From NCBI GenBank assembly GCA_051362555.1, contig CM120641.1:1674001-1738000 (forward strand): a stretch of DNA of 64,000 nt. Reading direction: 5' to 3'. This document shows, piece by piece, positions 3,122 to 63,606 of this stretch. The notes beneath the pieces were generated by a model that did not search any database, was not told the origin of the DNA, and was given only the letters and a program-made list of their open reading frames with translations. Source of the DNA: Lingula anatina. Lineage: Eukaryota; Animalia; Brachiopoda. The position numbers and the translations under genes are program-made. Position 1 is the stretch's first letter, and each line of letters begins with the position of its first letter.

Positions 3122-3169
3122 TGGAATAACCAACTTAATCTGGTCCTTAATTTTCATTTTTATTTTCAG

Positions 3170-29000: not shown

Positions 29001-32000
29001 ATTATGATGATCACAATAGATACTACAATCCTCTCATGGAGCGGCTGGTCAGATTTCAGGTGAGAACTGCTGTCATTGGTCAAGGCAGCATTGGACACAT
29101 TGGTCTGCAGTCCTTGGTCTGTGCCAAGGTGCAAACTAACCAAGGTCATCTTGGGATTCTGTTCAGAATTCCAGTTAAGAAGTATATGACTGTCTGTGCA
29201 ATAAAAGGCAACTTCTCTCTGACAAGATGACACTTGTGACACTTGGAAAAGTCATTGTGTTTGTAACTGTGTGACTGTCTTTTGTACAAGAGGCAAACAA
29301 TGTGAGGCTTTGATTCACTGACCTTTAAAAGGCCATTACCATGGGAATACCATGGTTTCTTTTATTCTCTGTTCAAGGTATACCGAGTTGCTGGTTGCTT
29401 CTGACATTATTGTTATTATAATGTTTAGTTATCATTACTGCCTCTTTCACTTTACATTTTGATGTTCCTAGTTTTGGCTTACCCAATGGTGCCTTTCCAA
29501 GTTTGGTTTTGTTTTGCTAGCTGTTTCATCTAACTGTAATTGTTAAACACATTGAAAATAGAGTTCATTAATTACCTGATCTTTTCATTGAGAAAAAAAT
29601 TGCTAATTTTTCTAAATACATAGTTTTAGAATCATTAACGATATAATTTTGTGTAGCATTTCTGATTTTATTTTTCTGTGTAGAATAGAACTAAAGGAGC
29701 CTGCTTTTCATTTATGTTGCTATCACTCAATACAAATGCTCTTATTTTTAAATATTATGACTTTAAAATTATAGTATCTGTAAAATTCACAATTTCCCCC
29801 CATTAAAAAGCTCAAGTTATTACCGTACTCACATGGTACTGCTCCACTGGATGGGGTTTCCTTCAGGACAAAAGGTACCTTTCTTACTCATTACATTGTT
29901 TCTTCAATCTGTAAACCGTTCTTGGTTTGGTCTTTTCTTTACGTGAAGTCAAAGTATATTGTTGAAATTGGCTCTTGGTACAATTTCTAACACACTGCTT
30001 TACTTCAGTACAGTTGTCACTGCTTTCTACTGGATTTTCTGTAGTTGCTGTTGACTCATTGGGAGCTGCCTCAAGTTTGACACCAGTTTCTTTGAACTGT
30101 GGATGTCTTTGGTTCCTAGAATGTCATAACTGTCATTAGCACAGTGACATCATTTCCTCATGGTACATTAGGTGATATTTCATGATTACTGAAGCTGGTG
30201 TCAGGGTTACTTGTGAAACAGTTCAGGTGCTTCTCTTGTCATGTGGTAAGATGTTATTACGTCTGAAAATGAAGGAAAAAAAATTAAAAAATCAGTGCAT
30301 ATATTTAAAGAGATCCTTTGGTAGTTTTAATCCATAAAGGAGTTAAAACACATACACATGGTATTAGCCCCCATATCTTGTCTATAGATAGACTTCTTTG
30401 CACTGATGCCATGTGTTAATTTACTTCTCTAAAGAAGTAAATGTTAATATATCATTTGGTTCAGCATGGTTTAAGCAAACTCTTTATTAAATCCTTACTT
30501 CAGGATGTAAGGTGTGAAGTGCAATTCACCCATTGACACGTCTGTAATCACAATGCCTGCTCTTCATTGCTGACTTCTTAATTCTGGGATTATTGGATGA
30601 TGCAATCTAGGGCTCTGTTGTTTCTCCGCCTTTAGTCTGAGCCCAATTTTGTCGAAACTGATTTGCTTTGCTTGAATCCCCTATTGCAATTAGACACTCC
30701 AAAATGAGTTCTGATGATATTTTCCCACTTTCAGACTTAATACCCTGCTTATCATTATCGCTTTCATAGAAAGACCTGAAACTGATGTTAATATTGAATT
30801 TCAACACAATCGATACTTCAGATGATTTCCCCGGCCAATTGGTTTAGATTCCATGTTTTCTTTCAAATCACCAGGTAATAGTTATAGATGAGATCATTTG
30901 TCAGATGCTTCAGTTGCTATCTGCTGTAACAATTAGAACAGTAAATCTGATATTGATCTTACAAGTGAACTCCACTCCAAATATACTTGTTACGCTTGAT
31001 ATCATCTCTGCCAGTGTTAGCTAGTTAGCTGAATAATGCATAGACTTAATCTGTAATATTGCCTCACAAGCATACATGGAATATTGAATTCCTTGGTTTA
31101 CATTCACCGTCTGATGAACACCATGAAGCTTGTCAATGGGTCGTACAAAGTTATTTTACTGACAACGAGCAGTGAGGCGCTACGGATTAGATTGATGGCC
31201 GTTTGTGCAGTGTCACCTGGATGACATATCACCTCAATTAAGATTAAACTTGGATCTGATCTCCAGGCGGAAAGAGACTCTGTAAGCTATGCTCTGAACC
31301 CTAGAAATGCCATCAGCTTTGTTAAATGTAAACCCTCACATAACCACAGGATAGTGCTGTTTTACAATTTTTTTAGTACTGGAGAAAAGATAAATTGTCA
31401 CAGAAAGTTACATGCCCTGAGTGGCATATCCTCTACGTGATAACCGTATGATGGATGAGAAAATTGTAGATAGGTGTGGATAATTTTCACCTTGTTCAAA
31501 TGTGAAAAGTGGTTGAAAATTAATAACACAAAGATTTCTCATTAACTCGGTTTCCAAGAATTTTTATAAAGCAAATGTCATTTTCAGATCCTTTTTCTGT
31601 ATGAAAAGAAATGTTTTATTTAGTGATACACCATGAACATGCAGTATGCTTCAACACAATATATTATGACATGTGACCTTACACATTAGGTTAGTCAAAA
31701 AATAAAACAGAGATTTAGGAAATTATTTATAAAATATAATATCACTAATTTTTTTTCATTTCAGACAGGAGCAGTAAAAGCAGAGCAGTACCACCAGTTA
31801 TCTTTGTGCCTTTTAACTCGCCTTCAACACGGTGATGAACATTACATCCATGACATACTCTCCACAGTACTCTTCAACCCTGATTTCCTCTGGTAAGATT
31901 GCCATTCTACCTCATACAAGTATTAGCACTCATCCTCACAGGCAGTGGGTACTATCTTATCTACTTATTCCCTCCTTAGAATTACCATAAAAGAAAGAAA

Positions 32001-38329: not shown

Positions 38330-39055
38330 TTAAGCTTTAACAAAAATTTTCAATGCATATATGTTTTAAAGTCGAAGTACAATGTTGATATTGTATATAA
38401 CTAAATATTTACTCAGTACTGCTATCATGAATTGTTTCAAGATATTTATTTTATTAAAATGTATCTTCTGATTTTTATTGTGTTGTCATTGAAAGTTCGA
38501 TTAAGTTTTGCATTTAGGAAATCAAGCACATTTTGTAGCGCTTATAACATCATATAACTTAAAGATGTCCTCACGCTCTTGCGTTACAGGATTAGATCTA
38601 TATTTCTCCTTTTCACAAGTTCACATCCACCTCTTTCGTCAAGTTAAATTTTTTCTCTGGGCGCCGTTTAGATGATTCTCTTGTCAATTTCTCCAAGTGT
38701 ACCAGTCCAGTTGGATGTGCTGCTCTATATGAAAACAGTGTGTGTATGTATTAGTTTTATATATTTGAAACAAAGTAATACAACTTAACATTCACACGGT
38801 ACAGTCGGTAAAATTATAAAAATAGAGATAAAAAAGAGCGAGTTCGTCAAGGAGTGGAAAGTTTTGAGATGAGTTTATATGTGGCAGGTTTATTTTTATC
38901 GCAAAGAGATAAAGAAACGTAATTTAGAAGGCATCATATCCGGACATATTTCTCCAGCATGGTAACCGTAACGTACTTGGCCTTATTATGGTCAACACTT
39001 TCTGTATCAAACAGTGGCGACACATTTTAAATAGTGCCCTTTGGTGGCAGTCGTA

Positions 39056-39242
39056 CAGGCCCCTAGCCAGCAATTGCAAAAAGGGGGGGGGGGGGCATTT
39101 TTCTGAAAACGTGGACCTTTTGTCATGAATCCTTTGTTTACCTCGATCATATTTACGCAGAGTAAATCTTTTCCCAGCAAAAAAGGGGTTCTTTCAACCC
39201 CCCACCCCCGAACCCCACCCCACACCCTCGGCAACGTGCCTG
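39056..39242. mobile_element. Short CAG...CTG element (hAT-like MITE) with a 6-bp target duplication
   Basis: Ends CAGGCCCCTAGCC / GGCAACGTGCCTG; GTCGTA is directly repeated on both flanks; internal poly-G and poly-C runs. Confidence 0.6.
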
Positions 39243-39542
39243 GTCGTATCTGTTTGCAGGCACGTGTGCAGGTTAATATATTTGAAATTCTTAATGCAGT
39301 TTTTCCTGTGCAATTTTGGTCGTGTTGACGAGCTGATTTCTGCAAACGGTAAAGAAGGTAGTACCGGTACATAGAAGCACTGGCACATAGGTATATGCCC
39401 ATTCTGTACATTTTAATGAACATTTAACGAAATATTACTTGTTACGTTATTACAAAGACTTTCCACGTGTCGTATGCACGTGAGACAGATCTTTGACACC
39501 AGAGAAGGAAAGCTACTGTTTTCAAACTAACACATCCCCCCC

Positions 39543-39545
<3 letters not shown>

Positions 39546-39596
<51 letters not shown>

Positions 39597-39700
39597 AAAA
39601 AACAGAGCATTTTTCCAACACTGGAAATTTCCATCAGGACGGCTTCAGTGCTTCTCTGGGACAACAAATATCAGTTTTGCCCCCCTCCAACCCCTCCCCC

Positions 39701-39750
<50 letters not shown>
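39546..39750 (+). repeat. Poly-A tract (~50 nt) and (CA)n microsatellite
   Basis: A-run at 39546-39595; (AC)n at 39703-39750. Confidence 0.9.
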
Positions 39751-39755
<5 letters not shown>

Positions 39756-40176
39756 AACGAGGGTCTACGTGGAACTCGGCAGCGCTGAAGGTCAAAGACA
39801 GTCCCTTCCAGCCATTCCTTGATCTCCAGTCTCGATACTAGTCCCCAGTACATTGCCGTGTACCCTGGCTGTGGGAAAACAATGTCCCAGCAAAGAACCT
39901 ATCTTGTCAAAGACAAACAATTTGGTCATGATTAATATATTGCTGTTTTGTATCAATATGTTTCATAATTCGATAACCTGGAGACTAAGATACTTGAGTA
40001 AATATATCCAAGGCGGTTCCACAACTTGTCGACAATTTGGGTTCATCACTTTCGCTGGAGTGGATAAGAGGTGCGTTTCACAAGGCAGTGCCGGGGCTTC
40101 CTCGCAAAACCTCCACACAAATTTAATAGAGAACTCAGACAACGACCAAAAAGGTAGGTGGACAGGTTGAATCCGG

Positions 40177-40320
40177 TGATCGCCACATGTTTACCCTTTA
40201 AAAATTGTAAGTTAGCTTTTGCGGATGATCGCACCATGTTTACCCTTTAAAATTGTAAGTTAGCTTTTTCGGAAGATCGCCACGTGTTTACCCTTTAAAA
40301 TTTAATGGTGAGCTTTTTAC
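40177..40320 (+). repeat. ~50-bp tandem repeat x3 upstream of the sushi gene
   Basis: gatcgccacatgtttaccctttaaaa(a)ttgtaagttagcttttt repeated three times with decay. Confidence 0.8.
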
Positions 40321-40939
40321 TGATCGGTTTATCAAATGTCATATTACAAGACAAATATTGGCATCTCTATTCAACTATCTTTCAACGATTATTTTAAATA
40401 ACGCAGCATTTCCTGTCTCTGTAAATTGATAATGTGGCCTCAAATGTTCGTGACAATCACAAATTATTGATAAGAGTCCACAGCTGTGTATTTTCCTGAG
40501 TGTCCAGCTATGCACGTCTCTGTCTGTCTCCATTTGTAGCTGAAACACACAGGTTAGTGAATCTGTCTGCCATTTCATTACAGATACTCTTGGAAACTGA
40601 GTACAGATAATGCTCTTGATGTTATTCTGCACAGTTTGGCGAGCTGAAAATTTCAAGGAAGTCTGATGCTGCCACTACAGCGAGACATTTTAAAATGACA
40701 ATGAATTTCTCACAAATGCATACTTCTTTATATTAACGATAAATTAGTGTTTCCGCTGAAACTATCCCCTTTTACTTTTCATCGCCAAAAACAGTGTTAA
40801 TATTGCCATCCCCAAGAAAGCGAACTCTATGATCACGTGAAATACTGAGGTTTTTATGAAATTGTCCACGTCGTTGGATGGCCATACGGTTATTGTTTTT
40901 TTTTAATTGTTATTACCAGGGAACTGACCGAGGAAAGCG

Positions 40940-42943
40940 ATGGGCGGTCTTGTACGAACAGCGCTGTACGCGTGTGGTGTTCTTCTGCTGGTAAACTTCG
41001 GTAAATATATTGAGAGAGAGAGAGAGAGACTGGCAAGAGTGTTTTCAATGTTTTATCCATAATGTACTTTGATGGCCAAGTTGAATTTGATATTTACCAT
41101 GTTTTTACCCTCAATAAATTTAGTTTAATAAATAAATAATTTTTTTTTATCTGTCAATGGTTTATCTAATATGACAGTTCATTCAACTAATATATATATT
41201 ACATATATATCGGATATTGATCACTGTCAGACCTCTTGAAAATGAAATGTAAACGCATTTAAGTTTTTTATTTAACTAAAAATGTGAAAACTACCCCATC
41301 GATATTTTCGTGAAAACCTTTCAGTATGCGTTAAGAAGCCAAAGTAACGGTTGGGTAGCCAACTATTTTCTAAAACAAGCTTTATGAAAAAGCAGCCAAC
41401 TATCTAAACTGGATTCTTTTCATCTCAGTTTCGTTTATTTCTCTATTAGAAACACAGAGTGTGTGGAGAAACGATTGTGAATAAAGAATTTAACATTAAA
41501 TATAAATATATGAAGTAATAAATAATTTCAAAACTTTTGTGTATCATATTTTCAGCATCCTGTCGCAAGACAAAAGGCAGTAAGTCAACGATCGCTCCCT
41601 ATAAACCGACTACCAAAGGCACCAAAGGCACCCCGGCAGAGAAGACTTTATCAGCGAAGTGGAGTACGGTGACGTGCCACCAGGTGTCCGGTACATGCAG
41701 CAGCTCCTGTGGTAGAGGAAAGGTAGAGCTTCATGGTATCGGAGGGTGCATAACCGGCGTCTGTTGTGTCGACAAAGGTAAATGCAGGCCGTTACTCTGC
41801 AAACACAGAACGTTTTATAACGTTACCATAACGTTTTTTGGGGGTAAAATTAACGATATGGTAACGTTATAATAACGTTATGTGTTTGCTGGGTAATTAC
41901 TGATATGTCTCCTTACATGTAGCAGTTTTGAACAGTCATCTAGAAAATGCAGGGTTGCCTGAAGCGAACTTTCTGAAGTGCACGCGTCTCTGAAACAACA
42001 GTTGATCATCACTGTAGTTAAATTGATAATACCAGAAGATACAAAATTTAAAACAACTTCGAATATGATTGCCAGTGGCCATCTTTCTCAGTATTTGACA
42101 ATAATGCGTGTACTTTTTAAGCCATTGTCATGTATGTCCAGTTCTAGCAACTTGAATTTGTCTTCTTGAATGTTGTCGATCGTACGTTAAGGAGTTACTT
42201 AAGTTGTTGTTTTTTTATAACCAACTCAAAAGACGAAGGACCCTGTAAAGGATACTGCGGAGGAAATTGCCTGAGCTCGAAATACGTGGATAAATATTGC
42301 ACGCAGAAAGGTTACGTCGCGTTGAATGAGTCCGTTTGTGTGGACAGTTCTAAAACATGTTGTGGTAGGTATATGGCTTTAGTTTGTGGGTATTTATGAC
42401 ATAGAAAGTTTTGATAAACGTGTTAAGATATGTTTGGGTGAAAAAAACGTCCTGAACTGAGCTAACTCGAAATTAACACCTGACAATTCGATGGAATCTT
42501 GTTTAGTACCACTTTAAGTAAGCGTGTCAGGTACAGATACGTTTCGATTCATTATTATTTATCTATTTGTAAGTTTTTTTTGTGACTGGTTATAATCGCC
42601 GGAATAAAATACTTGTGTATTTTTGATGTTCCTGTTATCTATTAGAAGAAGCTCCTAACCACCAACTTATTTCCTGTCTGTACACATACAAGCTTCTCTT
42701 AATCCCTTTCTCTTATCATACATGTCTAGACCCCAACCATATGGCATGTGTTAGTTGATAAAATTATAATCCGTTGCCCCTTTATCCACCGCTATACAGT
42801 ATATTACACTTAAAGCATGTTTCTTATGGGGTTTAATGTGTTGGCTTACAAAAATTAAATAAGGAGGTTATTCCTGTTAATCTTTATTGATAATGCTGTG
42901 CAACATTTGAACATTTACATTTCTATTACGAAAATCGAAAAAC

Positions 42944-42978
<35 letters not shown>

Positions 42979-45900
42979 CAATTCACTGAGAAGTCAAACA
43001 TTTCCTCGTTTTTTAGTTTTGAATCGGAAATAGCAAGTTTTACCATTGCTTTCTTTTCTTACAGTACCAAGTTCCACAAAGGCAGAATGCAGCAATAAAG
43101 GTAAAATATTTTGTTATTGCTGTGGCACAATAAACAATTTGTTGATATTGCTTCCGTCACTTATAGCGCTACTCCACGGGATTTCCCCGCCAAACTGAAT
43201 TTTAGAAGTTCTCTCCACGCGTTCCAAGTCCCCTCACATTCATATATTTATGTCTTGTAATTTTTTTTTCACATTCCCAGTTTAGACTCTAAAGATAAAA
43301 AACTCTTTAGAAAAAAAGTTTATCCAAAGCGTACCTAGTAATGATGTCATCTTCTCAGCCTCCTTCAGAATAATCAAAACTACAAACGTTTATTAATCAT
43401 AAAATACGTTTGAAAGATAGGCGTCGACGCGCTGTAGAGGGCGCGGTTTACCTTTACCAAGGATTGTAAAATAGACGAAATATTGATGAAAAGTATTTCA
43501 TAAATACTTCAATACTTTTCCCTGTTCCAAGGGTCAGGGCTGACATCCACTGTAATATAAATATTAAAAATATATTTCTCCCAAATTCAATTTCAACCTG
43601 ACAATCCTTATTCGCTTCAAACAAAGCAGACTGTTGGGTCTTTTAGAAAAATGTCACTACCGACAGATTCATCAAACATATTTCATTAAAATTAAATTTC
43701 ATTTCATTGATTTCAACATCATGAAAATAGCAGCATAAAATGTTTCCAGAATATAAGGAATTTATTAATCCAGAACGGACGTTTTTCTATTGTAGATCCC
43801 TGTGGACCACCACCCGTAGTGGCGAATGCTGAAACGTCAAGTGCGTTGTCGTCTGCTCATGGTTCCGTGCTACGATATCAGTGTAAGAGTGGCTTTGCTG
43901 ACAAAGCTGAATCCTCCAGGTTTTACCGCTACAAGCACCGCGGTGCTTATTACTGCAGAGACGGCTCCTGGATAAGCTACATGCCTATCAATTGTCAGCG
44001 TAGGTATTTTTGATGTTAAGATGATACAGATTAAGAACATGGGATATCTGAAACAATCCTGGCGGTTTTGTGGATTTGATATACTGGATTAGAAGGTTAA
44101 TGATAATTAATATTCTTAAATTTGTCTTCTTAATTTCACAGAAATTTGTCAAAAACCTCCCACGGTAGCCAATGCCGTTGTTTCTGGAGCACCTCTCAGC
44201 GCAGCTAATATCTTCCAAGACGACACAGTAACTTATTCGTGTAAAACTGGATATGCCCAAATTGGCGGATCTGCTATCAGGACCTGTACAAATGGTGCTT
44301 GGAAGGGGAGTGACATCGTATGTCTACGTAAGTTGGACCTTGCATTATCAAATTGTACCGTTAACTCCTCTCTACATTACTTTAAATAACATATGGGCAT
44401 CATAAAACTGTAGTATATATCTTGTTTTCAAAATACTTAATTGTGTATACAAATTAATGAAGAAATAAAATAGACGAAATATTGATGAAAAGTATTACAT
44501 AAATACTCCAATACTTTTCCCTGTTCCAAAGGTCAGGGCTGACATCCACTATAATATTAATTTAAAAATATATTTCTCCCAAATTCAATTTCAACCTGAC
44601 AATCCTTATTCGCTTCAAACAAAGCAGACTGTTGGGTCTTTTAGAAAAATGTCACTACCGGCAGATTCATCAAACATATTTCATTAAAATTAAATTTCAT
44701 TTCATTGATTTCAACATCATGAAAATAGCAGCATAAAATGTTTCCTGAATATAAGGAATTTATGAGTCCAGAACGAACGTTTTTCTATTGTAGGTCCCTG
44801 TGGACCTCCACCCGTAGTGGCGAATGCTGAAACGTCAAGCACGTTGTCGTCTGCTCATGGTTCCGTGCTACGATATCAGTGTAAGAGTGGCTTTGCTGAC
44901 AAAGCTGAACCCTCCAGGTATTACCGCTACCGCGGTGCTTATTACTGCAGAGACGGCGCCTGGATAGGCTACATGCCTATCAATTGTCAGCGTAGGTATT
45001 TTTGATGTAAAGATGATACAGATTAAGAACATGGGATATCTGAAACAATCCTGGCGGTTTTGTGGATGTGATATGCTGGATTTGAAGGTTAATGATAATT
45101 AATATTCTTAAATTTGTCTTCTTAATTTCACAGAAATTTGTCAAAAACCTCCCACGGTAGCCAATGCCGTTGTTTCTGGAGCACCTCTCACCGCTGCTAA
45201 TATCTTCCAAGACGACACAGTGACTTATACGTGTAAAACTGGATATGCCCAAAATGGCGGATCTGCTATCAGGACCTGTACAAATGGTGCTTGGAAGGGG
45301 AGTGACATCGTATGTCTACGTAAGTTGGACCTTGCATTATTATCAAATTGTACCGTTAATTCCTCTCTACATTGTTTTAAATGACATAATTATAAGCATC
45401 ATAAAACTGTAGTATATATCTCGATTTCAAAATACTTTTAAAATTGTCACAATGTGTATACAAATTAATGAAGGCTGAAGCATGTGAATACAACCACCCA
45501 TATCAAAACTAAAAGTTTGCATTAACGAGTTTGCAGGAGTTTGCAAGAAAAATTTTTTCTTGCTGCTAATTTGCAGCTATATTTCTGCTAATTTGCAAGA
45601 AGTTATTGCAATTTGCAGCAATTTAGCAATTTTGCTAAGGAAAAGATATTGAAAGCCATCAGTTGGGTCAGATATATATAATCCATTCTTGTATTCCACA
45701 GAAATTTGTCAAAAACCCCCTACGGTAGCCAATGCCGTTGTTTCTGGAGCGCCTCTCACTGCTGCTAATATCTTCCAAGACGACACAGTGACTTATTCTT
45801 GTAAAACTGGATATGCCCAAAATGGCGGATCTGCTGTCAGGACCTGTACGAACGGTGCTTGGGAGGGAAAGGACATCGTATGTCAGCGTAAGAACCTTTT

Positions 45901-48900
45901 ATTAATACAAATCATCTTTACTTTAAACATTCACTCATTTTCTCTTTACTTTGCTTTACTACCAGTGGTATACTATATATCGTTTTAAACTTTCTAACGT
46001 GTGTGCAATTTATCAATAAAGAATTACTAGGAAATCACTCAAAGAACGCAGATCTCTGCAGAGCACCTTGAAGTGATAAATTGTGGTAGTTGAGAGCACT
46101 TCCATTGTACGAAGTCATTGGTTCTGTCACGCAGAGTTGAAGAATCCTTTAAAACATCTTGGATGCATGTGATTTACCCGGTTACGGATCAGCGCCAAAA
46201 TTGAAATATTAATTTAACTGATCCTTTTTGCGACGTATACTGAAATTTCATAAAAAATGTATCCTTTACATCTTGAGCTAAGCTGGTGACAGACAAACAG
46301 ACAAACGGAGGAGCTCCTTGACTGAGGTAAAATACGGGTCCAAATATGAAAGCCAAATTAATAAAAGCTAATAATACCGATTGGATGAGGTATTTTAGTA
46401 TATATTTGTTATATGATAATTCCTCCTCTCAATTCCACAGAAATTTGTCAAAAACCTCCCACGGTAGCCAATGCCGTTGTTTCTGGAGCACCACTCACAG
46501 CTGCTAATATCTTCCAAGACGACACAGTGACTTATACGTGTAAAACTGGATATGCCCAAAATGGCGGATCTGCTGTCAGAACCTGTACGAACGGTGCTTG
46601 GAAGGGGAGTGACATCGTATGTCAGCGTGAGTTTGGACCTCTCGTCATCGTTAAATAACTTCGTAAATTTCTCTTTACTTTGTTTTACTGCCAGTGCTTT
46701 ATATTTCGTTTCAAACTACTAACTTAAATGTGTTTGGGTCTTTATGCATGTATATGGCCATGTTAATAAAATCTAATAACACCAATCGGGTAAAATATTC
46801 TAGTATATATATATGTCGTATGACATTTCCTCTCCTTAAGCAGTATTTATTTGTCATATGATAATTCCTCTTCTAAAACTCCTTTTCTTAATTTCACAGA
46901 AATTTGTCAAAAACCTCCCACGGTAGCCAATGCCGTTGTTTCTGGAGCACCTCTCAGCGCAGCTAATATCTTCCAAGACGACACAGTGACTTATACGTGT
47001 AAAACTGGATATGCCCAAATTGGCGGATCTGCTATCAGGACCTGTACAAATGGTGCTTGGAAGGGGAGTGACATCGTATGTAAACGTAAGTTGGACCTTG
47101 CATTATCAATGGTACCATTAATTCCTCTCTACATTGCTTTAAATAACATATGGGCATCATAAAACTGTAGTATATATCTCGTTTTCTAAAACTTTTAATT
47201 GTGTATACCAATTAATGAAGAATAAAATAGACGAAATATTGATGAAAAGTATTACATAAATACTCCAATACTTTTCCCTGTTCCAAAGGTCAGGGCTGAC
47301 ATCCACTGTAATATAAATATTAAAAATATATTTCTCCCAAATTCAATTTCAACCTGACAATCCTTATTCGCTTCAAACAAAGCAGACTGTTGGGTCTTTT
47401 AGAAAAATGTCACTACCGGCAGATTCATCAAACATATTTCATTAAAATTAAATTTCATTTCATTGATTTCAACATCATGAAAATAGCAGCATAAAATGTT
47501 TCCAGAATATAAGGAATTTATGAATCCAGAACGAACGTTTTTCTATTGTAGGTCCCTGTGGACCACCACCCGTAGCGGCGAATGCTGAAACGTCAAGCAC
47601 GTTGTCGTCTGCTCACGGTTCCGTGCTACGATATCAGTGTAAGAGTGGCTTTGCTCACAAAGCTGAACCCTCCAGGTTTTACCGCTTCAGGCGCCTCGGT
47701 GTTTATTACTGCAGAGACGGCGCCTGGTTAGGCTACATGCCTATCAATTGTCAGCGTAGGTATTTTTGATGTTAAGATGAAACAGATTAAGAACATGGGA
47801 TATCTAAAACAATCGTGGCAGTTTGGTGGATTTGATATGCTAGATTAGAAGGTATATGATAATTAATATTCTTAAATTTGTCTTCTTGATTTCACAGAAA
47901 TTTGTCAAAAACCTCCCACGGTAGCCAATGCCGTTGTTTCTGGAGCACCTCTCACCGCTGCTTATATCTTCCAAGACGACACAGTGACTTATTCGTGTAA
48001 AACTGGATATGCCCAAAATGGCGGATATGCTATCAGGACCTGTACAAATGGTGCTTGGAAGGGGAGTGACATCGTATGTCAACGTAAGTTGGACCTTGCA
48101 TTATCAAATGGTACCGTTAATTCCTCTCTACATTGCTTTAAATTACATATGGGCATCATAAAACTGTAGTATATATCTAGTTTTCAAAATATTTAATTGT
48201 ATATACAAATTAACGAAGGCTGAAGCATGTGAATACAACCACCCATATCAAAACTAAAAGTTTGCATTAACAAGTTTTGCTGCTAATTTGCAGCCATATT
48301 TCTGCTAATTTGCAAGAAGTTATTGCAATTTGCAGCAATTTAGCAATTTTGCTAAGGAAAAGATATTGAAAGCCATCATTTGGGTCAGATATATATAATC
48401 CATTCTTGTATTTCACAGAAATTTGTCAAAAACCCCCTACGGTAGCCAACGCCGTCGTTGCTGGAGCACCTCTCACCGCTGCTAATATCTTCCAAGACGA
48501 CACAGTGGCTTATTCGTGTAAAACTGGATATGCCCAAAATGGCGGATCTGCTATCAGGACCTGTACTAACGGTGCTTGGAAGGGGAGTGACATCGTATGT
48601 CAGCGTGAGTTTGGAGCTCTCATTATTATCAAAGCATTTTGTTAAATACTCTTTCCTTTGAACATTTACTCGTTTTCAACTAACGTACAAATTTGTGCGA
48701 CTTGATAATAAAGAAATACTTGAAAATCACTCAAAGGACGCAAACCTCCCCCAAACACCTTGCAGTGATACATTGTGGTAGTTGAGATCACATCCATCCT
48801 ACAAGGTCATTGGCTCTGTAGCGCAATGGTGTAGAATCCTTCTTGGCTGCATATGGTTTTCCGGGTAAAGGATCAGCGCCAAACCTTAAATATTTTAAGG

Positions 48901-51900
48901 TATCCTTTTTGTGACCTATCCTGAAAATTTCATAAAAATATATCCATAATTTTTTTAATTAAGCTGGCGATAGACAAACAGACAAACGGAGGTGCTCCTT
49001 GGCGGACGTAAAATACGGGTCCAAATATAAAAGCCAAGTTAATAAATGCTAATAATACAAATTGGATAAGGTATTTTAGTATATATTTGTCATATGATAA
49101 TTCCTCTTCTTAATTTCACAGAAATTTGTCAAAAACCTCCTACGGTAGCCAACGCCGTCGTTTCTGGAACACCTCTCAACGCTGCAAATATCTTCCAAGA
49201 CGACACAGTGACTTATACGTGTAAAACTGGATATGCCCAAAATGGCGGATCTGCTGTCAGGACCTGTACGAACGGTGCTTGGAAGGGGAGTGACATCGTA
49301 TGTCTACGTAAGTTTGGTCCTTTCATTATTGATACCCTCACCATTAACTTGCAGTTGGTCGCCTCTTCTAGTGACGTGGGTTGACATTAATTTTGACCAT
49401 AGGCTAATTCATTTTGTAAGACTGGGGAATAAATACCGTATCTTTTTAAGGATATTGTCACCGTTCGCAAAAAACTATTACTGCTGCCTTACTTACATTC
49501 TTTTGGGTAACAGATATATCTTCAGTGTTCTATGACTAAATTGATTAACATTTATACATGTGTCACAATTGCGATTTTGGGGTAAAAACTGAAAATTCGG
49601 TTTCTCAAATTTCTCTTTTACCTGAGCACCCACGATCATACTTTCAACGCCGATTTAATGGCACCATTTAGTACTCCGAAACTCTGCCAGCGATTTTTCA
49701 TAAAAGTCTTAGTTAAGATTTTATCGTTGATAAGGCAAAATAATGGCTTTTTTGGTAAAAAATTAAGGGCTCATAACTCCATAGCAAAAACATTTAGATG
49801 TAGATTAAACATGTAGTTTATCTCATGTTTTAACAAATAGATTAACCTTCGTAACTTCATGTAATTTTTAAAAATACATGGTCAATACTTTGAATTTGGT
49901 GCACCGGAAAGTACTCCCACTTAAAACTAGGTTAAATTATGACTGCCCTTTGCAAAATATCAGGGCTGCTCCAAATTTGCTGCAATATGGCTGCAAATTA
50001 GCAGCGAAAATTGATTTTTTGCAAACTTCAGTATTGCTGCAAACGTTTTAATTTGCTAAGGGTGATCACCATATTGCTATTTTAGAGACATGTAGCGACC
50101 CCAGGAAGCTCTCCAAGTTAAGATTCTTGACAAAATCCACAGTTTTCAAAGAAGGAGACACCGTCAAATACATGTGTGAATATCAACCCGGGACAACTGC
50201 GACGTTACTGTGTTCAGACGGAGCGTGGGTGCACAGCGGCACCAAATGTTCTGGTACGAACACCCAAAAGTCACGCAAAAGTCACACTAAATCCAGTATT
50301 TAGCACTTAAGCTTCGTTCACAACAAATATGGCCGACCCACATGAAATCTTGTTGCGTAATCCTCGAGGGGGGTGTATTCAGTGTCTATTACGGGTTTAC
50401 GCGGCAAGATTTTAAGTAGGTGGCAATATTCAATCCGCGGACAAGCTAGACCAGTGTTGTGAATGAGGCCTTAAATTGCAAGTTGTGGTTGAACATGTTG
50501 TGTATTTAAGTCAGAGAAGAATTTCATTGGCTGTGTTATGTAATAAGAATAAATTAATTTTTCTTCAATCTTATTACGTTATCTTTCAGAAATATTGGAG
50601 TTAATATATGCATATTGTAGTGACTCTACCCAAGACACTTTTTAAGTACAATTTTATGTGTCCAAAATGAATTATAAGCTTTGACTTTCAGAAAGATGCC
50701 CAGAACCCCCTACTTTCATCCATGCCACTTTAGTAAACAATAAAACATACGTAGAAGGCGACCAAGCAGTGTACGTGTGTGATAAAGGGTATATCAACAA
50801 AGACGGCTTAAGAACCTTGACCTGTGTTTCTGAAAAATGGGACGGCAAAGGCATTAAGTGCACGAGTAAGTTATCACCAAACTAAACAAAGTGTATGTTT
50901 TGATTAATAACCCGAGGAAGCTTATGAGAGATAATACGGAGACCATGCCATCTTTACCTTTGTATTCAGTATATGATTTAATTGCCATTCCTTAATTGGT
51001 TGTAAACACATTGTTCGCAGACTCATTTATTTTCAAATTGCTAGCTTATTGTCACTATGAGACGGTTAAATGTTGGAATGATTGTGGCTTGTTTTCAGAG
51101 ATTTGCCCGCAGCCACCACTTTACCAGTTCGCCCAAATGGTTGAAAATGCATCGGCAATCTACAGCAGCGGGGACTCCGTGAACTACAAATGTTCGAAGG
51201 GCTACGAACCTTCCAACCCCATCAACGTTATGTGTACTGACGGCTTTTGGGTCAACCCTTCGAATAAGACTTGTAAAAGTAGGTGCTTTTATCGATACGA
51301 CTTTATATTATTATTCATATAATTACTTTGTTTATGTAATTCCTAACTTGTGTTGGTCCCCATAACAGATTTAATTTGAATCGGCGCCATTTATAAAGTC
51401 AAGTTAAAACACATGATATCATTTTGTGGTTTTGATACATATTTGATACATTACAGCAGAAAATATTGGAGGATACTTGAACCAAGGTCCCTATTCAACT
51501 CCAAAGTTGTCTTCTGTGACAATGCCAATTTGTAGAGTGTACCTTACGACCACCTGTGTCTGACGTCTCAAGTATAAATAGCCATCGTAGATCATAATAC
51601 TGCCTCGTTCACCCGTAAATCAATATTTCAGGAGCGTGTCCTACGCCACCATCCATTCCTGATACCACAATAAGTCCCCAAATCGGAAAAAGCGTTCCCA
51701 CTGAGGGAGACGCGTTCACGTACAGCTGTGCCTCTGGTTTTGTGTCCACTGGCTCTGAACAGACACACGTTAAAACCTGTCGGGACGGGAAATGGACCCA
51801 GGGTAGCATTCAGTTTCAGTGCAAAAGTAAGTTGTTAAAAGTAATCTGAGTAAACAGTATTAGTACAAGAATAGGTTTACTATGTAAAAGAAATTGGGAA

Positions 51901-54189
51901 AAGTGACCAGTTGCTATACAGTAACTCCATAGAGATTTTATTTCGTGTCGACCAAAAAAGTTAGGACATTTTACATTTCGATCTTTTGCAGCGGATGGCA
52001 AGCATCTTATGGCTTTACTTCCCAGTTTTTACATTATCTACTGTTCATTTTGCAAAGTGGTTAAAAGGGGCCCTTTTAACCACTTGACAGAAAACTACAT
52101 TAGCACGTGGCAAATCTGTGCAGTCTGCGTGTTCGATCTTTGCAGGGTTGTCATTCTCAATTACTGCTCATTTTCATAACGTTCTGGTTACAGGGACATG
52201 CCCATCTCCACCAAAACTTAATAACACCAACCTGTTATCTTCGCCGAGTGCCACGTATGTTGAAGGCAAGACGGTCACTTACCGATGCCAGAAAGGATAC
52301 CAGCACTCTAAAGACCCAGCGGAAAACCATCTGATGACTTGTTCTGACAGTGGTGTGTGGAAAGGATCAACATTTATTTGCAAACGTAAGTTGGCAGGAT
52401 TCGAACTGATAATGTGTGTTAAAATGTTATAACGCCATTTGTAGTTTGATGACTGTCGTCAACCGGACTATATTACATGTATACCCTTAGCAAAATGAAA
52501 AGTTTGTCGGAATATTGCAACAGTATTGCAGCAAATTCGCTGCAAACTGTAAGTTTGCTGAAACGAGATTGCATGAGTTTGCAAGAAAAAAAATAGTTGC
52601 TGCTAATTTACAGCCATAATGCAGCAAATTTGAAAGAAGGAATTGCAGTTTGCATTTATATTGCAGCAAATTTGCTGCAACAGGTCTAATGTTTTTCTAA
52701 GGGTTGTTGTCTCTGTTCAATCGCTTTTGTGTTAGACCTAGCACTTCGGACGCATGAAATTTACGAACTCCAGGTAGAATCAAATATTGGTTGTACTACG
52801 TTTACTGTGAAATATTTTGGTTTCAGTTATTGTGGAATGTTATAGAAAATTTCTATCATTCTACAGGTACTTGTACACCCCCACCAAGTGTCCAGAACAC
52901 CAACGTTGTGATGCCGGTGTTACCAATTGTAGAGGGCAGCAGTGCATACTACATTTGTAAAGGCAACTCCGTGCAAGCTGGTGGTTCCTCTATCAAAACC
53001 TGCGTCGGAGGCAGTTGGAAGGGAGTTGATATCATCTGTGAAAGTAAGCCTATGTTTTGTTTTTATTTGTTGTCTAATTGTATTCAGATATGAAATTTGA
53101 AAAAAAATAATAATTGAAAAATCTATTAAATTCGAATGATTTCATTGTCTGGGAGGGTCTGGTTCGTGTCCCGTTTCACAGCCTTTTTTAATCATTGGAC
53201 AAACTGATAAACCATTTCTCTAAAAAACCTTTATGTATTCCTCCAGGTGAAGAACTATATATTATGACAAACGCAGTGTTTTAAAACTGCATGGCAGTTT
53301 GGAATTGTAGTATCTTAGTTACTGGGTATGATAAACCGCCCAACTGAAAAACTCAATTTGATAAACAGCAATGATGTCCTAGTCATAGGAAAACACCAAA
53401 AGACAACTTACATTTCTATGGGCAACTCCAGACGATGAGGCACATGTGGGTTACACTGTTTCAAAATGTATTCCACTTTTTTCATTGAATTTTTAATTTT
53501 AATTTAAGTTTTGTTTCATTATCTTACTTTTTTGTATTTCAACCTATTGTGTTACAGAGTTCTGCAGCGGGTTGCCATATGCTGAAAATGCAGACACCTT
53601 GATAGATCATTTCCCTGATGGGAAACTAAAAGAGGGTGCTCGAATCATCCATCGTTGCAAGATAGGCTACATTAAGGCTGAGGGTGACGATACAAGAACA
53701 TGTACTAATGGCACGTGGTCAGGAAAAACTTTCAAGTGTGAAAGTAAGAATCAAAACGTGGCAATGCTTGTGGTAAACCTAATTTGGCGTTAAAATGTGT
53801 TTTCTAACTGTGAAAAGACGATGATAATCAGCCTTTCACCCTACTGTGTATTTTAGACCGGGAATATGCTAGATTATATTTCCAATCTGGTTGTAGAAAA
53901 CGTTGCTGTCAGATTCCAACAGAGGTAATGTATTCTTTATCGACACTGTGTCATTTGACTCTCCTAAAACTTGACAAGTTTTGGCAAACTGATCATCCCT
54001 TTCTGTCTGTATGTCTGTTTTTATTTTATCCTATATTCTATAGTGATTACCACCCGTGTGACGTCACCCAAACCGGTGTCTACGGCCCAGATGAAGACGA
54101 CTACGACACCTAAGACTGTAGAGACCACGGACACGGGATCGGGAGCCATTGAAAACGACGTACTGGTGGAAGAGTACCTTTTGGGTTGA
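40940..54189 (+). CDS. Secreted multi-sushi (CCP/SCR) protein: signal peptide + 2 beta-defensin-like Cys modules + 18 sushi domains + Thr-rich tail, ~1,320 aa, 23 exons
   Basis: Exons: 40940-41000 (MGGLVRTALYACGVLLLVNF), 41556-41777, 42233-42364, 43065-43100; sushi exons 43796-43999(A), 44142-44327(B), 44794-44991(A), 45134-45319(B), 45702-45887(B), 46441-46626(B), 46900-47085(B), 47552-47755(A), 47898-48083(B), 48419-48604(B), 49122-49307(B), 50086-50253, 50692-50865, 51099-51278, 51632-51826, 52194-52385, 52867-53043, 53558-53743; last exon 54044-54189. Each sushi exon fits C-x2-P..Y-x-C..C..W..C. All introns are phase 1. AATAAA at 54245. No transmembrane segment is seen. Confidence 0.85.
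41794..41893. mobile_element. ~100-bp palindromic MITE (GCAAACACA..AACGTT type) in intron 2 of the sushi gene
   Basis: gcaaacacagaacgtt / aacgttatgtgtttgc inverted ends; internal ATAACGTT repeats. Confidence 0.55.
43468..49320 (+). repeat. Intragenic tandem duplication array of sushi exon-intron units (order A B A B B B B A B B B)
   Basis: Near-identical introns and exons. ~1.0-kb A-B unit (43796 to 44794) and ~2.76-kb higher-order unit (44142 to 46900; 44794 to 47552). Confidence 0.92.
52484..52703. mobile_element. CCCTTAGCAAAA-ended MITE rich in GCAGCAAATTTGC; relatives at 49946-50062, ~45505-45640 and ~48250-48357
   Basis: Inverted ends CCCTTAGCAAAA / TTTTTCTAAGGG; repeated tgcagcaaatttg motifs are shared by four intronic copies. 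Confidence 0.6.
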
Positions 54190-56381
54190 TTTTCAGAGAA
54201 GGACGCATTTCAGTAGTTTTATAGCAGCTGACAAACTGGAATTGAATAAAGAAGGACTGAATTCCATTTCCTTTGAAACGTCTGAGTAAATTCTGAAATT
54301 CACAAACTGCTCGCTATCCTTTCATCAGTCAACTGGATTAATGTCTAACGGTTTTACAAGAAATAACTGCTTAAATGTTGGGCTTGTATATACACTTACA
54401 ATTTTACTTTTAGGATCCTGGGATATATTTAGTTAATGCATATCGAGGAGATTTAGTGCATCATTTCAGTTTATTTTCATTGAAGTGTGTTCTCTGAATA
54501 AAACAGTGGTGTCGTAACGAAAACAATAACCCTGTAATAAAATACGTACAAGAATTAAGCTGGGAGGAATTTGATTTCATTTCGAGCAATTCCATTGGCC
54601 GGGAATATTGGATATCTCGTTTTTCACGTTTTCCAAAGTAAGCCACTTTGTAACGATCATCCATTTTCACACTTAAAAAAAAACATTTAGTTTCTGAACC
54701 ACCTTATAAGTGATGTGCTTTAAAAATTCCCGGAATATCCATCAAAACCAAGCATTTTTGAAGAATAAATGATTAATGTTCAACCACCTTTTATTTGTTA
54801 CTTTGTTGAAACAATACTCAATAAAGTATGAACATGGTGTCTGTAACTGCCCAGTTTAAAGATCAAATTATCAATGATTGTAACGGCAGCGAACGAGAAG
54901 AATTTTGTATACAGTGGACGAAGATAGTTCCTTTTTTTATTCAGAGTAGGCTTGTTAAGGACCAAAAATTGGCCAAACGCTGCATTTTGTAGTACAAATG
55001 TCTAACTTGGCATGTATGTTCCTTGGGCCAAAAGAAAATTTTTATCCGATGCATAAGTTAGCGTAACTAGCATAAATTATACAAATTAGGAACCAAAATA
55101 TAATATTTCATATTTCCATCAGTTTTTTTGCCTAAAACACGTATAGATTATCAAACCTAACTAAATTAGGGACAAGGAACCCATTTTTGACATTATGGAA
55201 ACAATTGGCGGCCGTTTTGTGAATCAGATTCAAGATGGCCGCCATCCACCATTTTGAAAGTGGACATAATTTTGCTATAGGCCTATTATGTTGATTTCTA
55301 AAGTGTTTGGCCTACTATACGCGTAATATATCGATTCTTACTAGTCATTTTGGATATTGTTTGGGTGATAGAAGGTGATTTGAAGGGACAAAGAGGGTGT
55401 TTTAAGTGAATTTCAAAATATATGTCAGAGAAGGCTGCAAAACCGTGGATATTGATAATGACCCCTATTCAAATTTATCTCAGTGCAATTTTTTTTTGGT
55501 TATATACCATCGATACTGGGCTAAATTAGGAGGAAGAAACTCATTTTTGCCATTATGGAGGCCATTGGTGGCCATTTTGTCCCTAAAATCTAAGATGGCC
55601 GCCAGATACCATTTTAAAATTGAGCATAATTCACCATATTGAAACTACACACATTGGACAATAGAAGTGTCACCCCTACTGAACCAATACTTTGGGGGTG
55701 ATAAATGACTGTGGAATGATATGCTCCTAGTATCATTTTATTAACATCAAATTTCACAAAAAGTCCAACAATACAATTCCATGGTACAGCGGTTTTATAC
55801 TCATTAGTCACATTATAAGTAGACCAGGCATTATAACTTTGATTACTCTGATTCAAGGGGTGACACTTCTATTGTCCAGTGTGTGTACATTTGTGAAAAT
55901 AGTTCAGCTTCCTTGTGTGGTGTTGTTAGACTGTCCAAAGTCCATAGCCAAAGCATTTAATCATGACCACTGTCTCTATAGTGAAGCTTCTGTTCCACAT
56001 ATATTTTTGTACATTCTGTCGTAGGAAACATTTTGTAAAGCAAGTCACCCAAAAGTTAAAGGTATTCCATGAGGGATCCTAGCACAGTTAGGACCTTGTG
56101 TAGCTGTTATAAAGTCGGGTGACATCATTTGTCCTTTAGGGTACTGACATTACCAGTTTGTTGATGCATCTCTGACTAAGACCAACCAACTCTTCAGCAA
56201 GAGCCTGCCTCAACCCATCCAGTGCTAGATATCAGTATTCCGTGGTCAACGATTTTCATGAAACGCTCTATGAGATTTATATCAGAAGAATAAACATTTC
56301 AGTCCAGTTTCTTAACGTCTTGCATAGTGAAAACCTTTTATTGCATCAATGAGAATAAAATTGGAGTCATTTGACACTCTA

Positions 56382-61543: not shown

Positions 61544-62133
61544 TATTTCTGAAGGAAAAAAGGAACAATCTTCCTGCATTGTACATAAAATTGTTCTTGT
61601 TCACTTCCGTTGCAATAATTTATCATTTCAGCGTTGGGCTGGGTAGTTACAGACGTCAGATGTATAGGTCCATGTTTACGCTTTATTGCATGTAACAAAG
61701 TAACAAATAAAATGTGGTTGAACATTAATCATTTATTCTTGAAAATCCTTGGTTTTGATGGATATTCCGATAACCATATCGAAGCTTTAAATTTTAAAGC
61801 ACATCACTTGTAAGGAGGCTCAGAAACTAAATGTTTTTTAAGTGTGAAAATGGATGATCGTTTTTAAGCTGCTTGCTTTCGATTGAAAAATCACAACAGC
61901 ATAATATTTGTATTAGTTATCCAACAATTTCGGCCAGTGGGATTGTTTGAAACAAAATCAAAATCCCCTTAGCTTAATTTGTATACATTTCTTATTACAG
62001 GGTTATTGTTTTCTTTACGACACCGCTGTTTTATTCAGAGAACATACGACAATGAAAATAAACTGAAATGACGCATATACAGTTTGTCATCTATTATAAA
62101 ACTGCTGAAAGGAATGCTACGTCCTTCTGAAAT

Positions 62134-63606
62134 TCAACCCTGAAGGTACTCCTCCACCAGTACGTCGTTTTCAGTGGCCCCCGATCCTGTGTCCGTGGTC
62201 TCTACAGTCTGAGGTGTCGTAGTCGTCTTCATCTGAGCCGTAGACGCCGGTTTGGGTGACGTCACACGGGTGGTATTCACTATGTGTCAAAAGGCACATC
62301 GTCGGTAAAGAATAAATTACATCTTTTGGAATTTGGAAGGAACGTTTTCTACTACCAGATTGAAAACATAATCAAGTATACTCACGGTCTAAAATACACT
62401 GAAAGGTGAAAGGCTAATTATCATCGACTTTGCAGAGTTAGATAATGCATGTTACGATAAATCAGGTTTAACACAAGCATTGCCGCGTTTGGCGAATATG
62501 TGTTTTGATTCTTACTTTCACACTTGAAAGTTTTTCCTGACCATGCGCCATTAGTACACGTTCTGGTATCGTCACCCTCGGCCTTCGTGTAGCCCGTCTT
62601 GCAACGATGGATGATTCGAGCACCATCTTTTAGTTTTCCGTCAGGGAAATGATCTATCAAGGTATCTGCATTTTCAGCATACGGCAACCCACTGCAGAAC
62701 TCTGTAACATTAGGTTGAAATGTAAATGAAGTAAGACAATGAAACAAAATATACATGTACCACTGTCTTTTTTTCAATTCTTGGAAGCCAGGGGGTGAAT
62801 TAAGGAATATGCATGCTGTGCAGTAAAGGTGTTTAAATGAACACATCAAGAAAAATAGACTGTAATACGCAAAAATTAAATTTTGACAAGGAATCTTGAT
62901 ATATACCAGTATGTACCTGCCAACCAATAACAGTCTGACTTTTGGCATAAAACAGTTTTTTCTTAATTAACGAAAAAGTAAATTACATTTGGAAACACTT
63001 TAACTTATGTGCCTCATCGTCTGGAGTTGCCCATAGAAACGTAAGTTGTTTTTTTTTTGGCGTTTCCTTATCATATGACTAGGGCGTCATTGCTGTTTAT
63101 CAAAATGTTCAATTGATGGCGTTTTTACGTTGGCGGTTTATCATACCCAGTAACTAAGATACTACAATACCAAACTGCCATGCAGCTTTAAAACTGTGCA
63201 TTTGTCAAAATATATAGTTCTTCACCTGGGATATACATGGAGGTCTTTTAGAGAAAGGGTTTATCAGTTTATAAAATGATAAAAAAAAACTGGGAAATAT
63301 TACACGAACCAGACCTCCCAGATTGTGGAATCATTCCAATTTAATCGATTATTCAATTATTTTCCATTTGATTATTTACAAATCCCATTCCTGAATAGTT
63401 AGACAACACTTGTAAAACAAACAGCCTACTTTCACAGATGATATCAACTCCCGTCCAACTGCCTCCGATGCACGTTTTGATAGAGGAACCACCAGCTTGT
63501 ACAGAGTTTCCTTTACAAATGTAGTATGCACTGCTGCCCTCTACAATTGGGAACACCGGCATCACAACGTTGGTGTTCTGGACACTTGGTGGGGGTGCAC
63601 ATGAAC
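62134..63606 (-). CDS. 3' part (two sushi exons + terminal Thr-rich exon) of an inverted paralog of the multi-sushi gene; 5' part presumably beyond the window
   Basis: Exons 63606-63430 (GSCAPPPSVQNTNVV..ICE), 62701-62516 (EFCSGLPYAENAD..FKCE) and 62279-62134 (NTTRVTSPKPAST..VEEYLQG*) have the same lengths (177, 186, 146 nt) as 52867-53043, 53558-53743 and 54044-54189. Frames are open and GT/AG sites are intact. Confidence 0.85.

What the first reader, a model, noticed from the sequence alone, without database searches (positions are those of the whole stretch)
40940..54189. Secreted protein fusing beta-defensin-like modules to an 18-sushi stalk: candidate undescribed invertebrate immune or extracellular effector
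Seen: the signal-peptide exon is followed by a Lys/Thr-rich cationic linker and TCHQVSGTCSSSCGRGKVELHGIGGCITGVCC, with spacing C-x6-C-x3-C-x12-C-x4-CC. Next come a second CC-terminated module (PCKGYCGGNCLSSKYVDKYCTQKGYVALNESVCVDSSKTCC), a 12-aa linker exon with one Cys, 18 sushi domains and a Thr-rich tail, with no TM or obvious GPI segment. Known: this spacing is close to the beta-defensin-like C-terminal domain of big defensins (C-x6-C-x3-C-x13/14-C-x4-CC), and secreted all-CCP chains typify complement regulators such as factor H (20 CCPs). Inference: a defensin-fold head on a factor-H-like chain could be a pathogen-binding or complement-modulating protein, or a mucus, adhesive or matrix protein. 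I do not recognise this architecture from a named family.
Basis: partly seen in the sequence, partly recalled or inferred. Interest (0 to 1): 0.8.

Follow-up and report, generated by a model that had tools for sequence, protein, structure and literature searches.

The report
Defensin-headed sushi rod of a brachiopod
This is an intact brachiopod (Lingula anatina) gene, auto-named SVEP1 in RefSeq, whose predicted secreted protein puts a predicted beta-defensin-fold head on a chain of 18 sushi domains and likely acts as a tethered microbe-binding protein of mucus or matrix rather than as a complement regulator.

Summary
Observation confirmed. 23 exons (40940-54189, +), all 22 introns GT-AG and phase 1, give an open 1320-aa frame: signal peptide, cationic linker, two Cys modules, 18 sushi (CCP) domains and a Thr-rich tail. 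The gene matches RefSeq Lingula anatina XP_013405290-5, auto-named SVEP1 but with sushi domains only. A paralog about 40% identical in the head has the same layout, and a third copy lies tail-to-tail at 62133-63606. Module 1 is predicted to have the beta-defensin fold: pLDDT 77, and all 14 structural matches among 48,161 chains are defensin-fold entries, best helianthamide at Z 4.5. Module 2's fold is unresolved. No head homolog was found outside Lingula. It is not a big defensin, SVEP1 or factor H ortholog. It lacks the YIYH amylase site and is not listed in two shell proteomes. Eight RNA runs showed one exon joint and none in the head, so the head-to-stalk splice rests on RefSeq models and the paralog. 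The array of repeated exons differs between assemblies, and three CCPs carry a variable Arg/aromatic loop. Best reading (0.4): a tethered multivalent microbe binder. New domain combination; function untested.

The parts
40940..41000 (+). Coding exon 1: ATG and most of the signal peptide (aa 1-20); an AG at 40918-40919 suggests an upstream 5' UTR exon
   Evidence: identical to RefSeq P0003 N-terminus
41556..41777 (+). Exon 2: end of signal, Lys/Thr-rich linker (9 K+R, 1 acidic in aa 24-55) and module 1, C-x6-C-x3-C-x12-C-x4-CC, predicted beta-defensin fold
42233..42364 (+). Exon 3: module 2, seven Cys ending in CC; possibly a diverged second defensin-like unit, fold unresolved
43065..43100 (+). 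Exon 4: 12-aa linker with the eighth Cys of module 2 (also present in paralog P0007)
43796..49307 (+). Exons 5-15: eleven recently duplicated CCP exons, order ABABBBBABBB. A-type (43796-43999, 44794-44991, 47552-47755) has a 7-9 aa Arg/aromatic insert between Cys2 and Cys3; the eight B-type exons (186 nt) are 90-98% identical
50086..53743 (+). Exons 16-22: seven unique CCP exons (50086-50253, 50692-50865, 51099-51278, 51632-51826, 52194-52385, 52867-53043, 53558-53743); the 50865-51099 splice is seen in RNA reads
54044..54189 (+). Exon 23: Thr-rich acidic tail with a Gly-Ser-Gly flanked by acidic residues and a terminal VEE motif shared by the paralogs; stop; AATAAA at 54245, 54497, 54536, 54764, 54820
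62133..63606 (-). 3' end (last two CCP exons and tail) of an inverted, tail-to-tail paralog that runs off the window end

Best explanation
The gene is predicted to encode a secreted rod that likely sits in mucus or extracellular matrix, held by a likely glycosylated tail, and likely presents a predicted beta-defensin-fold head plus cationic Arg/aromatic CCP loops to bind microbial surfaces multivalently. Shown: exon structure, open frame, 18 CCPs, three family members in Lingula, purifying selection on the stalk, an exon array that differs between two assemblies. Predicted: secretion, beta-defensin fold of module 1. Inferred: a stiff spacer of roughly 60-70 nm (uniform 3-residue linkers; 3.5-4 nm per CCP recalled), O-glycan or glycosaminoglycan on the tail (consensus recalled), a microbial ligand. 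The head would stay attached: there is no dibasic site between head and stalk in this copy, and module 1 alone is near neutral, so it would dock rather than lyse.
For: Fold of module 1 and sequence profile hit to helianthamide, E 0.0076, the only hit at E <= 10 among 177,635 sequences. Signal exon, phase-1 intron, then the Cys exon resembles beta-/big-defensin gene structure (PMC7203481 section 9), although here the intron lies 40 residues before Cys1. Cationic N-terminal linker, pI 10.5. The only three basic-aromatic-basic triads in the protein lie one in each A-type loop; this triad is the LPS site of horseshoe crab factor C (PMC10672452 section 9). A1 vs A3 differ by 12 nonsynonymous and 2 synonymous changes, against 15 and 20 for the last three exons vs the paralog (Fisher p 0.01); 5 of 14 changes fall in 6 loop codons (p 0.006, window chosen after seeing the data). 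Precedents for defensin-fold heads on larger secreted proteins: rusticalin (PMC6339383) and anemone mucins (PMC10604346). Not listed in two shell proteomes.
Against: No binding, tissue or challenge data. The triad is weak: about 1 shuffle in 10 of an A exon gives one, other CCP proteins hold 0-4, and paralog P0007 has neither the triad nor the long loop. pN/pS of A1 vs A3 is not significantly above 1 (p 0.74). The head is identical between the two assemblies (0 of 151 residues differ, against 9 of 471 in the unique stalk and tail; p 0.12), not what fast pathogen-driven change predicts. Almost no exon reads in 8 RNA runs. Structural Z-scores are low (4.5 at best) and two of five models had pLDDT under 59; a shared fold shows no function.
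Confidence: 0.4

Rival explanations
1. A structural, adhesive or gamete/larval coat protein: the defensin-fold head is a protein-docking or cross-linking unit, the CCP rod a spacer whose length varies, and the tail a matrix anchor, with no role against microbes.
For: Near-identical tandem exons under purifying selection (B copies pN/pS 0.25); invariant head between assemblies; conserved Gly-Ser-Gly with acidic flanks in three tails; near silence in 8 RNA runs fits a narrow tissue or stage.
Against: Not listed among the shell matrix proteins of PMC4595640 (only sushi-bearing row is an 8126-aa protein) or PMC13425148 (three other sushi proteins; 0 hits for these accessions). The variable cationic loops are not explained.
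Confidence: 0.3
2. An enzyme inhibitor on a stalk: the head blocks a glycosidase or peptidase (as helianthamide blocks alpha-amylase, or the double-defensin tick carboxypeptidase inhibitor blocks carboxypeptidases) and so protects mucus or matrix from digestion.
For: Helianthamide is the top sequence and structure match for module 1 of both paralogs. Anemone mucins carry such a domain, proposed to protect their glycans (PMC10604346). Tandem defensin repeats make a double-headed inhibitor (PMC6339383).
Against: The YIYH amylase site named in PMC10604346 is absent: only its last His aligns in this copy and none in P0007. Module 2 is not shown to be a defensin fold.
Confidence: 0.13
3. A factor-H-like fluid-phase regulator of the brachiopod C3/factor B system, with the head as an added surface-targeting unit.
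For: Secreted all-CCP chain of similar length; CR1 and factor H are the top PDB sequence hits; brachiopods have complement genes (PMC9835746 passages).
Against: The PDB and database hits are generic repeat matches (22-33% identity outside Lingula). Best-match scores to bird factor H modules are 58-85 with no N-to-C order, against 72-215 and a colinear C-terminal block with the Lingula paralog; linkers are all 3 residues, against 3-6 in the factor H record. The first 11 CCPs are recent duplicates of two units, not an old regulatory CCP1-4.
Confidence: 0.08
4. Exons 1-4 are a separate small defensin-like gene that gene predictors fused to a downstream CCP gene.
For: No read joint across exons 1-5 was listed in 8 runs; AATAAA hexamers occur in the AT-rich head introns.
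Against: Exons 2-4 have no stop and end in phase-1 donors; the CCP exons have no other signal exon; all 6 distinct RefSeq proteins of this gene and all 3 of the paralog join head to stalk; a search for 50-168 aa stand-alone relatives found none at E <= 10 among 2 candidates.
Confidence: 0.05

Closest known systems
[quoted passage not shown]
   Same: Best sequence and structure match to module 1; same C2-x3-C3-x12-C4-x4-CC spacing; known to occur as a module of larger secreted proteins (PMC10604346).
   Different: No YIYH site; C1-C2 gap 6 rather than longer; joined to a second Cys module and 18 CCPs rather than free or joined to trefoil domains.
Big defensins (Cg-BigDef1 C-terminal domain 6QBK; Tt-BigDef 2RNG) and beta-defensins
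   Same: Six-Cys array, predicted fold (Z 3.6 and 2.0; hBD4 Z 3.5), phase-1 intron upstream of the Cys region.
   Different: No hydrophobic N-terminal domain (the hallmark, PMC7203481), no dibasic propeptide site, module near neutral, at the N-terminus of a 1320-aa protein.
Rusticalin-like proteins and tick carboxypeptidase inhibitor (PMC6339383)
   Same: Secreted proteins with two N-terminal CC-terminated Cys repeats predicted or shown to be beta-defensin-like.
   Different: Different spacing (Cx6Cx6-7Cx8Cx7CC), C-terminal partner is a peptidase domain or nothing; no sequence hit to them here.
Factor H, CR1, C4BP (regulators of complement activation)
   Same: Long tandem CCP chain, one CCP per phase-1 exon; internal block duplication as in CR1 long homologous repeats.
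   Different: Cys-rich head, Thr-rich tail, uniform short linkers, no colinear similarity.
Horseshoe crab factor C N-terminal fragment (PMC10672452)
   Same: Cys-rich head followed by CCPs; basic-aromatic-basic triads.
   Different: No EGF, LCCL, lectin or protease domain; head unrelated by any search run.
SVEP1/polydom (the RefSeq automatic name)
   Same: Many CCPs, secreted.
   Different: No VWA, EGF, pentraxin or HYR domain; about a third of the length.

Membership tests
beta-defensin fold (trans-defensin), module 1 | Six Cys ending in CC with G-x-C at Cys2 | tested here: met
   Sequence; all six Cys and the Gly are shared with paralogs P0007/P0008
beta-defensin fold (trans-defensin), module 1 | Small antiparallel beta-sheet matching solved trans-defensins | tested here: met
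   Predicted model pLDDT 76.7; 14 of 48,161 chains at Z >= 2, all defensin-fold entries, best Z 4.5, rmsd 2.4, 39 aligned; Foldseek ranks 1-4 likewise but none at E <= 0.001
beta-defensin fold (trans-defensin), module 1 | Disulfides 1-5, 2-4, 3-6 | not testable with these tools
   The prediction output gives no bond list; needs peptide mapping or NMR
beta-defensin fold, module 2 | Six-Cys array and fold | tested here: inconclusive
   Eight Cys; model pLDDT 48.8, no meaningful match; module 1 vs 2 similarity p 0.024 in P0007 but 0.10, 0.40, 0.65 in the other three cross comparisons
Big defensin | Hydrophobic N-terminal domain before the defensin domain | tested here: not met
   The 32 residues before module 1 are Lys/Thr-rich; no Pfam hit in the head at E <= 10; definition from PMC7203481 section 3
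Big defensin | Small prepropeptide with dibasic cleavage site, defensin domain C-terminal | tested here: not met
   1320 aa, module N-terminal
Helianthamide-type amylase inhibitor | YIYH site | tested here: not met
   Alignments; site named in PMC10604346
Factor H / RCA regulator | Chain of tandem CCPs | tested here: met
   18 CCPs
Factor H / RCA regulator | Colinear similarity to factor H modules, CCP-only composition | tested here: not met
   one bird factor H record (P0011) as comparator
Factor H / RCA regulator | M5-M3-M1-M2(-M4) motif order; C3b cofactor or decay activity | not testable with these tools
   No motif matrix found by a term search of the 7 supplements of PMC6683126; activity needs an assay
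SVEP1/polydom | VWA, EGF, pentraxin and HYR domains | tested here: not met
   Pfam on P0001, P0007, P0009: Sushi only, plus one PT-HINT whole-protein score with 0 passing stretches
Lingula shell matrix protein | Listed in a shell proteome | tested here: not met
   Term searches of the supplements of PMC4595640 and PMC13425148; the tables were not read whole

The most novel reading that the evidence does not exclude
A lingulid-specific family of tethered pattern-recognition proteins, made by phase-1 exon shuffling of an ancient big-defensin/helianthamide-type exon onto a CCP rod, in which individuals differ in the number and order of ligand-binding CCP exons and splice them alternatively, giving a variable-length, variable-valency microbe trap: the first trans-defensin-plus-CCP architecture.
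Probability: 0.3. Interest if true: 0.72.

Novelty: new variant of a known kind. Interest (0 to 1): 0.5.

Why it matters
If the head is a true trans-defensin fold, the family extends that fold to a lingulid brachiopod and shows the exon-shuffling route proposed for defensin evolution (PMC7203481 section 9) producing a large mosaic protein rather than a small peptide. It corrects a misleading automatic SVEP1 name on at least two Lingula genes. It offers a concrete, testable candidate for individual variation in innate recognition in a phylum with few characterised immune proteins. The parts are all known, the family appears confined to one genus in the databases searched, and the function is untested, which limits the interest.

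Tried and rejected
No whole genome is held for this window, so family size could not be counted. No RNA holder was listed by the index; 8 of the 9 same-species RNA runs were laid, 6-30% of each read: 94-100% of laid reads ran on into unlike sequence (dispersed intronic repeats), and the only GT-AG joint matching a predicted intron was 50865-51099 (4 reads, 2 starts, run X1). ESM Atlas gave no usable hit for either head. HMMER over 1.84 billion representatives gave 2 hits at E <= 0.001, both Lingula. A stalk search with P0007 30-520 gave 11 hits among 7991 scored candidates; the 8 non-Lingula ones are generic CCP proteins and none has the head pattern. Whole-head single-sequence model was poor (pLDDT 48.8); its matches (plant defensins E 5-10, glyoxalase Z <= 2.4) were rejected as meaningless. 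Receptor phosphatase hits to module 2 (E 0.005) were rejected: no Cys aligned, catalytic intracellular domain. PT-HINT Pfam score rejected as repeat summation. A possible extra exon near 53858-53925 was rejected: it does not fit phase 1 and is not in the RefSeq proteins. Gerdol et al. 2018 on Lingula immunity (PMID 29278680) is not held; it may already mention this family. Literature searches that listed no paper describing a defensin-plus-sushi protein: (listings; open-licence library only). Earlier scan findings: none. No complex prediction was run, as no binding partner is claimed.
Full report
What is there. Reading 39000-56000 and scanning for phase-1 exons gave 23 coding exons on the + strand from 40940 to 54189. 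All 22 introns are GT-AG and phase 1. The joined frame is 1320 aa without an internal stop, with 88 Cys: 2 in the signal, 6 in module 1, 8 in module 2 plus the 12-aa linker exon, 72 in 18 CCPs. Pfam Sushi matched 9 of 9 CCP exons tested; exons 2 and 3 matched nothing. The module-1 spacing occurs once in the window and never in 300 shuffles. Only the N-terminus is hydrophobic.

Identity. Exon 2 matches, at 100%, the N-terminus of proteins that their sources name as Lingula anatina XP_013405290-5 and XP_023929983, automatically called SVEP1 isoforms. The first 151 residues are identical to the window's; the unique stalk and tail differ at 9 of 471; the repeat array reads ABABBBBBBBB in the longest RefSeq protein and ABABBBBABBB here. 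So the window is another haplotype or assembly of that gene, and the array either varies between individuals or was assembled differently; this was not resolved. The six RefSeq proteins differ by skipped CCP exons (8-11 repeat units; one also lacks CCP12). The SVEP1 name is wrong: Pfam finds no VWA, EGF or pentraxin domain.

Family. HMMER of the 96-aa head over 1.84 billion representatives returned 2 proteins at E <= 0.001: the gene itself and a Lingula paralog, P0007 (39% identity, E 2.6e-7), with models on two scaffolds. P0007 has the same layout: signal, short basic linker, module 1, an eight-Cys module 2, 14 CCPs and a Thr-rich tail ending in Gly-Ser-Gly and a VEE motif. Both modules are homologous between paralogs beyond their Cys (z 9.2 and 5.5 against Cys-fixed shuffles), the B-type exon matches P0007's first CCP, and the last CCPs are colinear. 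A third copy ends tail-to-tail at 62133 on the minus strand, with pS 0.17 and pN 0.04 against this gene; the eight B copies have pN/pS 0.25. The gene is under purifying selection and is not an artefact. No relative of the head was found outside Lingula; short Cys-rich modules are hard to detect, so this is not proof of absence.

Is the head spliced to the stalk? Eight RNA runs of the same species label were laid (8 of 9 listed, 6-30% of each read). Exon coverage was near zero. One predicted intron was confirmed (50865-51099, 4 reads, run X1), and the few exon reads in the polyA runs lay in the direction expected for a + strand RNA. No head joint was listed. The join therefore rests on phase-compatible exons without stops, on all 9 distinct RefSeq proteins of the two genes, and on the conserved layout. 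I put it at about 95%.

Fold of the head. With a three-row alignment, module 1 was modelled at pLDDT 76.7, pTM 0.49 (five models 76.7, 72.7, 59.0, 58.2, 49.9). Against 48,161 solved chains, 14 reached Z >= 2: helianthamide (Z 4.5, rmsd 2.4, 39 aligned), oyster big defensin C-terminal domain (3.6), human beta-defensin 4 (3.5), then anemone peptides, gallin, other beta-defensins, alpha-defensin 6 and horseshoe crab big defensin (that the anemone peptides share this fold is recalled). Foldseek ranked helianthamide, gallin, hBD4 and a crocodile defensin first, none at E <= 0.001. By sequence alone, helianthamide was the only PDB hit to the two-row head profile (E 0.0076). The scores are low, as expected for 39 residues, but the list is uniform. 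Disulfide pairing was not tested. Module 2 is unresolved: poor model, no meaningful match, and only one of four cross-module comparisons suggests a duplication of module 1 (p 0.024, uncorrected).

How it likely works. All 17 CCP linkers are 3 residues, which suggests a stiff rod of roughly 60-70 nm (inference; size per CCP recalled). The tail is Thr-rich and acidic, with a Gly-Ser-Gly between acidic residues in all three paralogs, like a glycosaminoglycan attachment site (consensus recalled). The N-terminal linker is strongly basic, but module 1 is near neutral (3 basic, 3 acidic) and has no dibasic release site in this copy, so a released lytic peptide is unlikely. The three A-type CCPs carry a 7-9 residue insert with the protein's only basic-aromatic-basic triads, the motif that binds LPS in horseshoe crab factor C (PMC10672452 section 9), and their changes are mostly nonsynonymous and cluster in that loop. 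Against this: the triad is common in other CCP proteins and absent from P0007, the A-exon ratio is not significantly above 1, and the head is invariant between assemblies. I commit to a tethered, multivalent binder of microbial surfaces in mucus or matrix (0.4), ahead of a structural, adhesive or gamete-coat role (0.3), a stalked enzyme inhibitor (0.13), a factor-H-like regulator (0.08) and a mis-joined model (0.05).

Comparison with known systems. Not a big defensin: it lacks the hydrophobic N-terminal domain (PMC7203481, sections 3, 7, 9 and passages read). Not a helianthamide-type inhibitor by the YIYH test (PMC10604346 passages). Not colinear with a factor H; the RCA motif test of PMC6683126 (passages and a supplement term search) could not be run. 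Not listed in the shell proteomes of PMC4595640 or PMC13425148 (passages and supplement term searches; tables not read whole). Defensin-fold heads on larger secreted proteins are known: rusticalin with two repeats on a peptidase (PMC6339383 passages) and anemone mucins. Ten literature searches listed no paper describing a defensin-fold-plus-CCP protein; the main paper on Lingula immunity (PMID 29278680) was not available and may bear on this.

Verdict. A real gene of a small Lingula family, already modelled but misnamed in RefSeq, with a domain combination not found in the searches run. Known parts, new arrangement, function untested: new variant of a known kind, interest 0.5.

Noticed in passing
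window 62133-63606 (-), running off the window end: Inverted tail-to-tail paralog; last two CCP exons and tail about 90% identical in protein, with similarity extending into introns and 3' flank. No separate database protein for it was found.
   Followed up: partly
window 43467-49324: Nested tandem duplications with introns: a 1-kb A-B unit in three copies (94-95% identical) and a 2.5-kb block 44100-46643 repeated at 46858-49324 (89%).
   Followed up: partly
P0009 (RefSeq XP_013405347) residues about 135-220: One isoform of the paralog has an 84-aa insert with a dibasic site between head and first CCP that looks like a degenerate CCP.
   Followed up: no
window 41805-41837, 43171-43203, 45504-45575, 49484-49660, 50324-50408, 52484-52654: Short dispersed repeats in the introns, some palindromic, drew almost all RNA reads from transcripts elsewhere in the genome.
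   Followed up: no
window 3113-5383 (+): Long exon of a TMEM151 family gene (Pfam E 2e-151).
   Followed up: partly
window 10346-11431 (-): Leucine-rich repeat ORF (Pfam LRR_6); resembles the ciliary protein TCTE1/DRC5 (recalled, untested).
   Followed up: partly
window 22120-22362 (+) and 28133-29251 (-): RPAP1-like exon (Pfam RPAP1_C) and an intronless rhodopsin-family GPCR on the opposite strand, possibly nested in an intron of the RPAP1-like gene (nesting not checked).
   Followed up: partly
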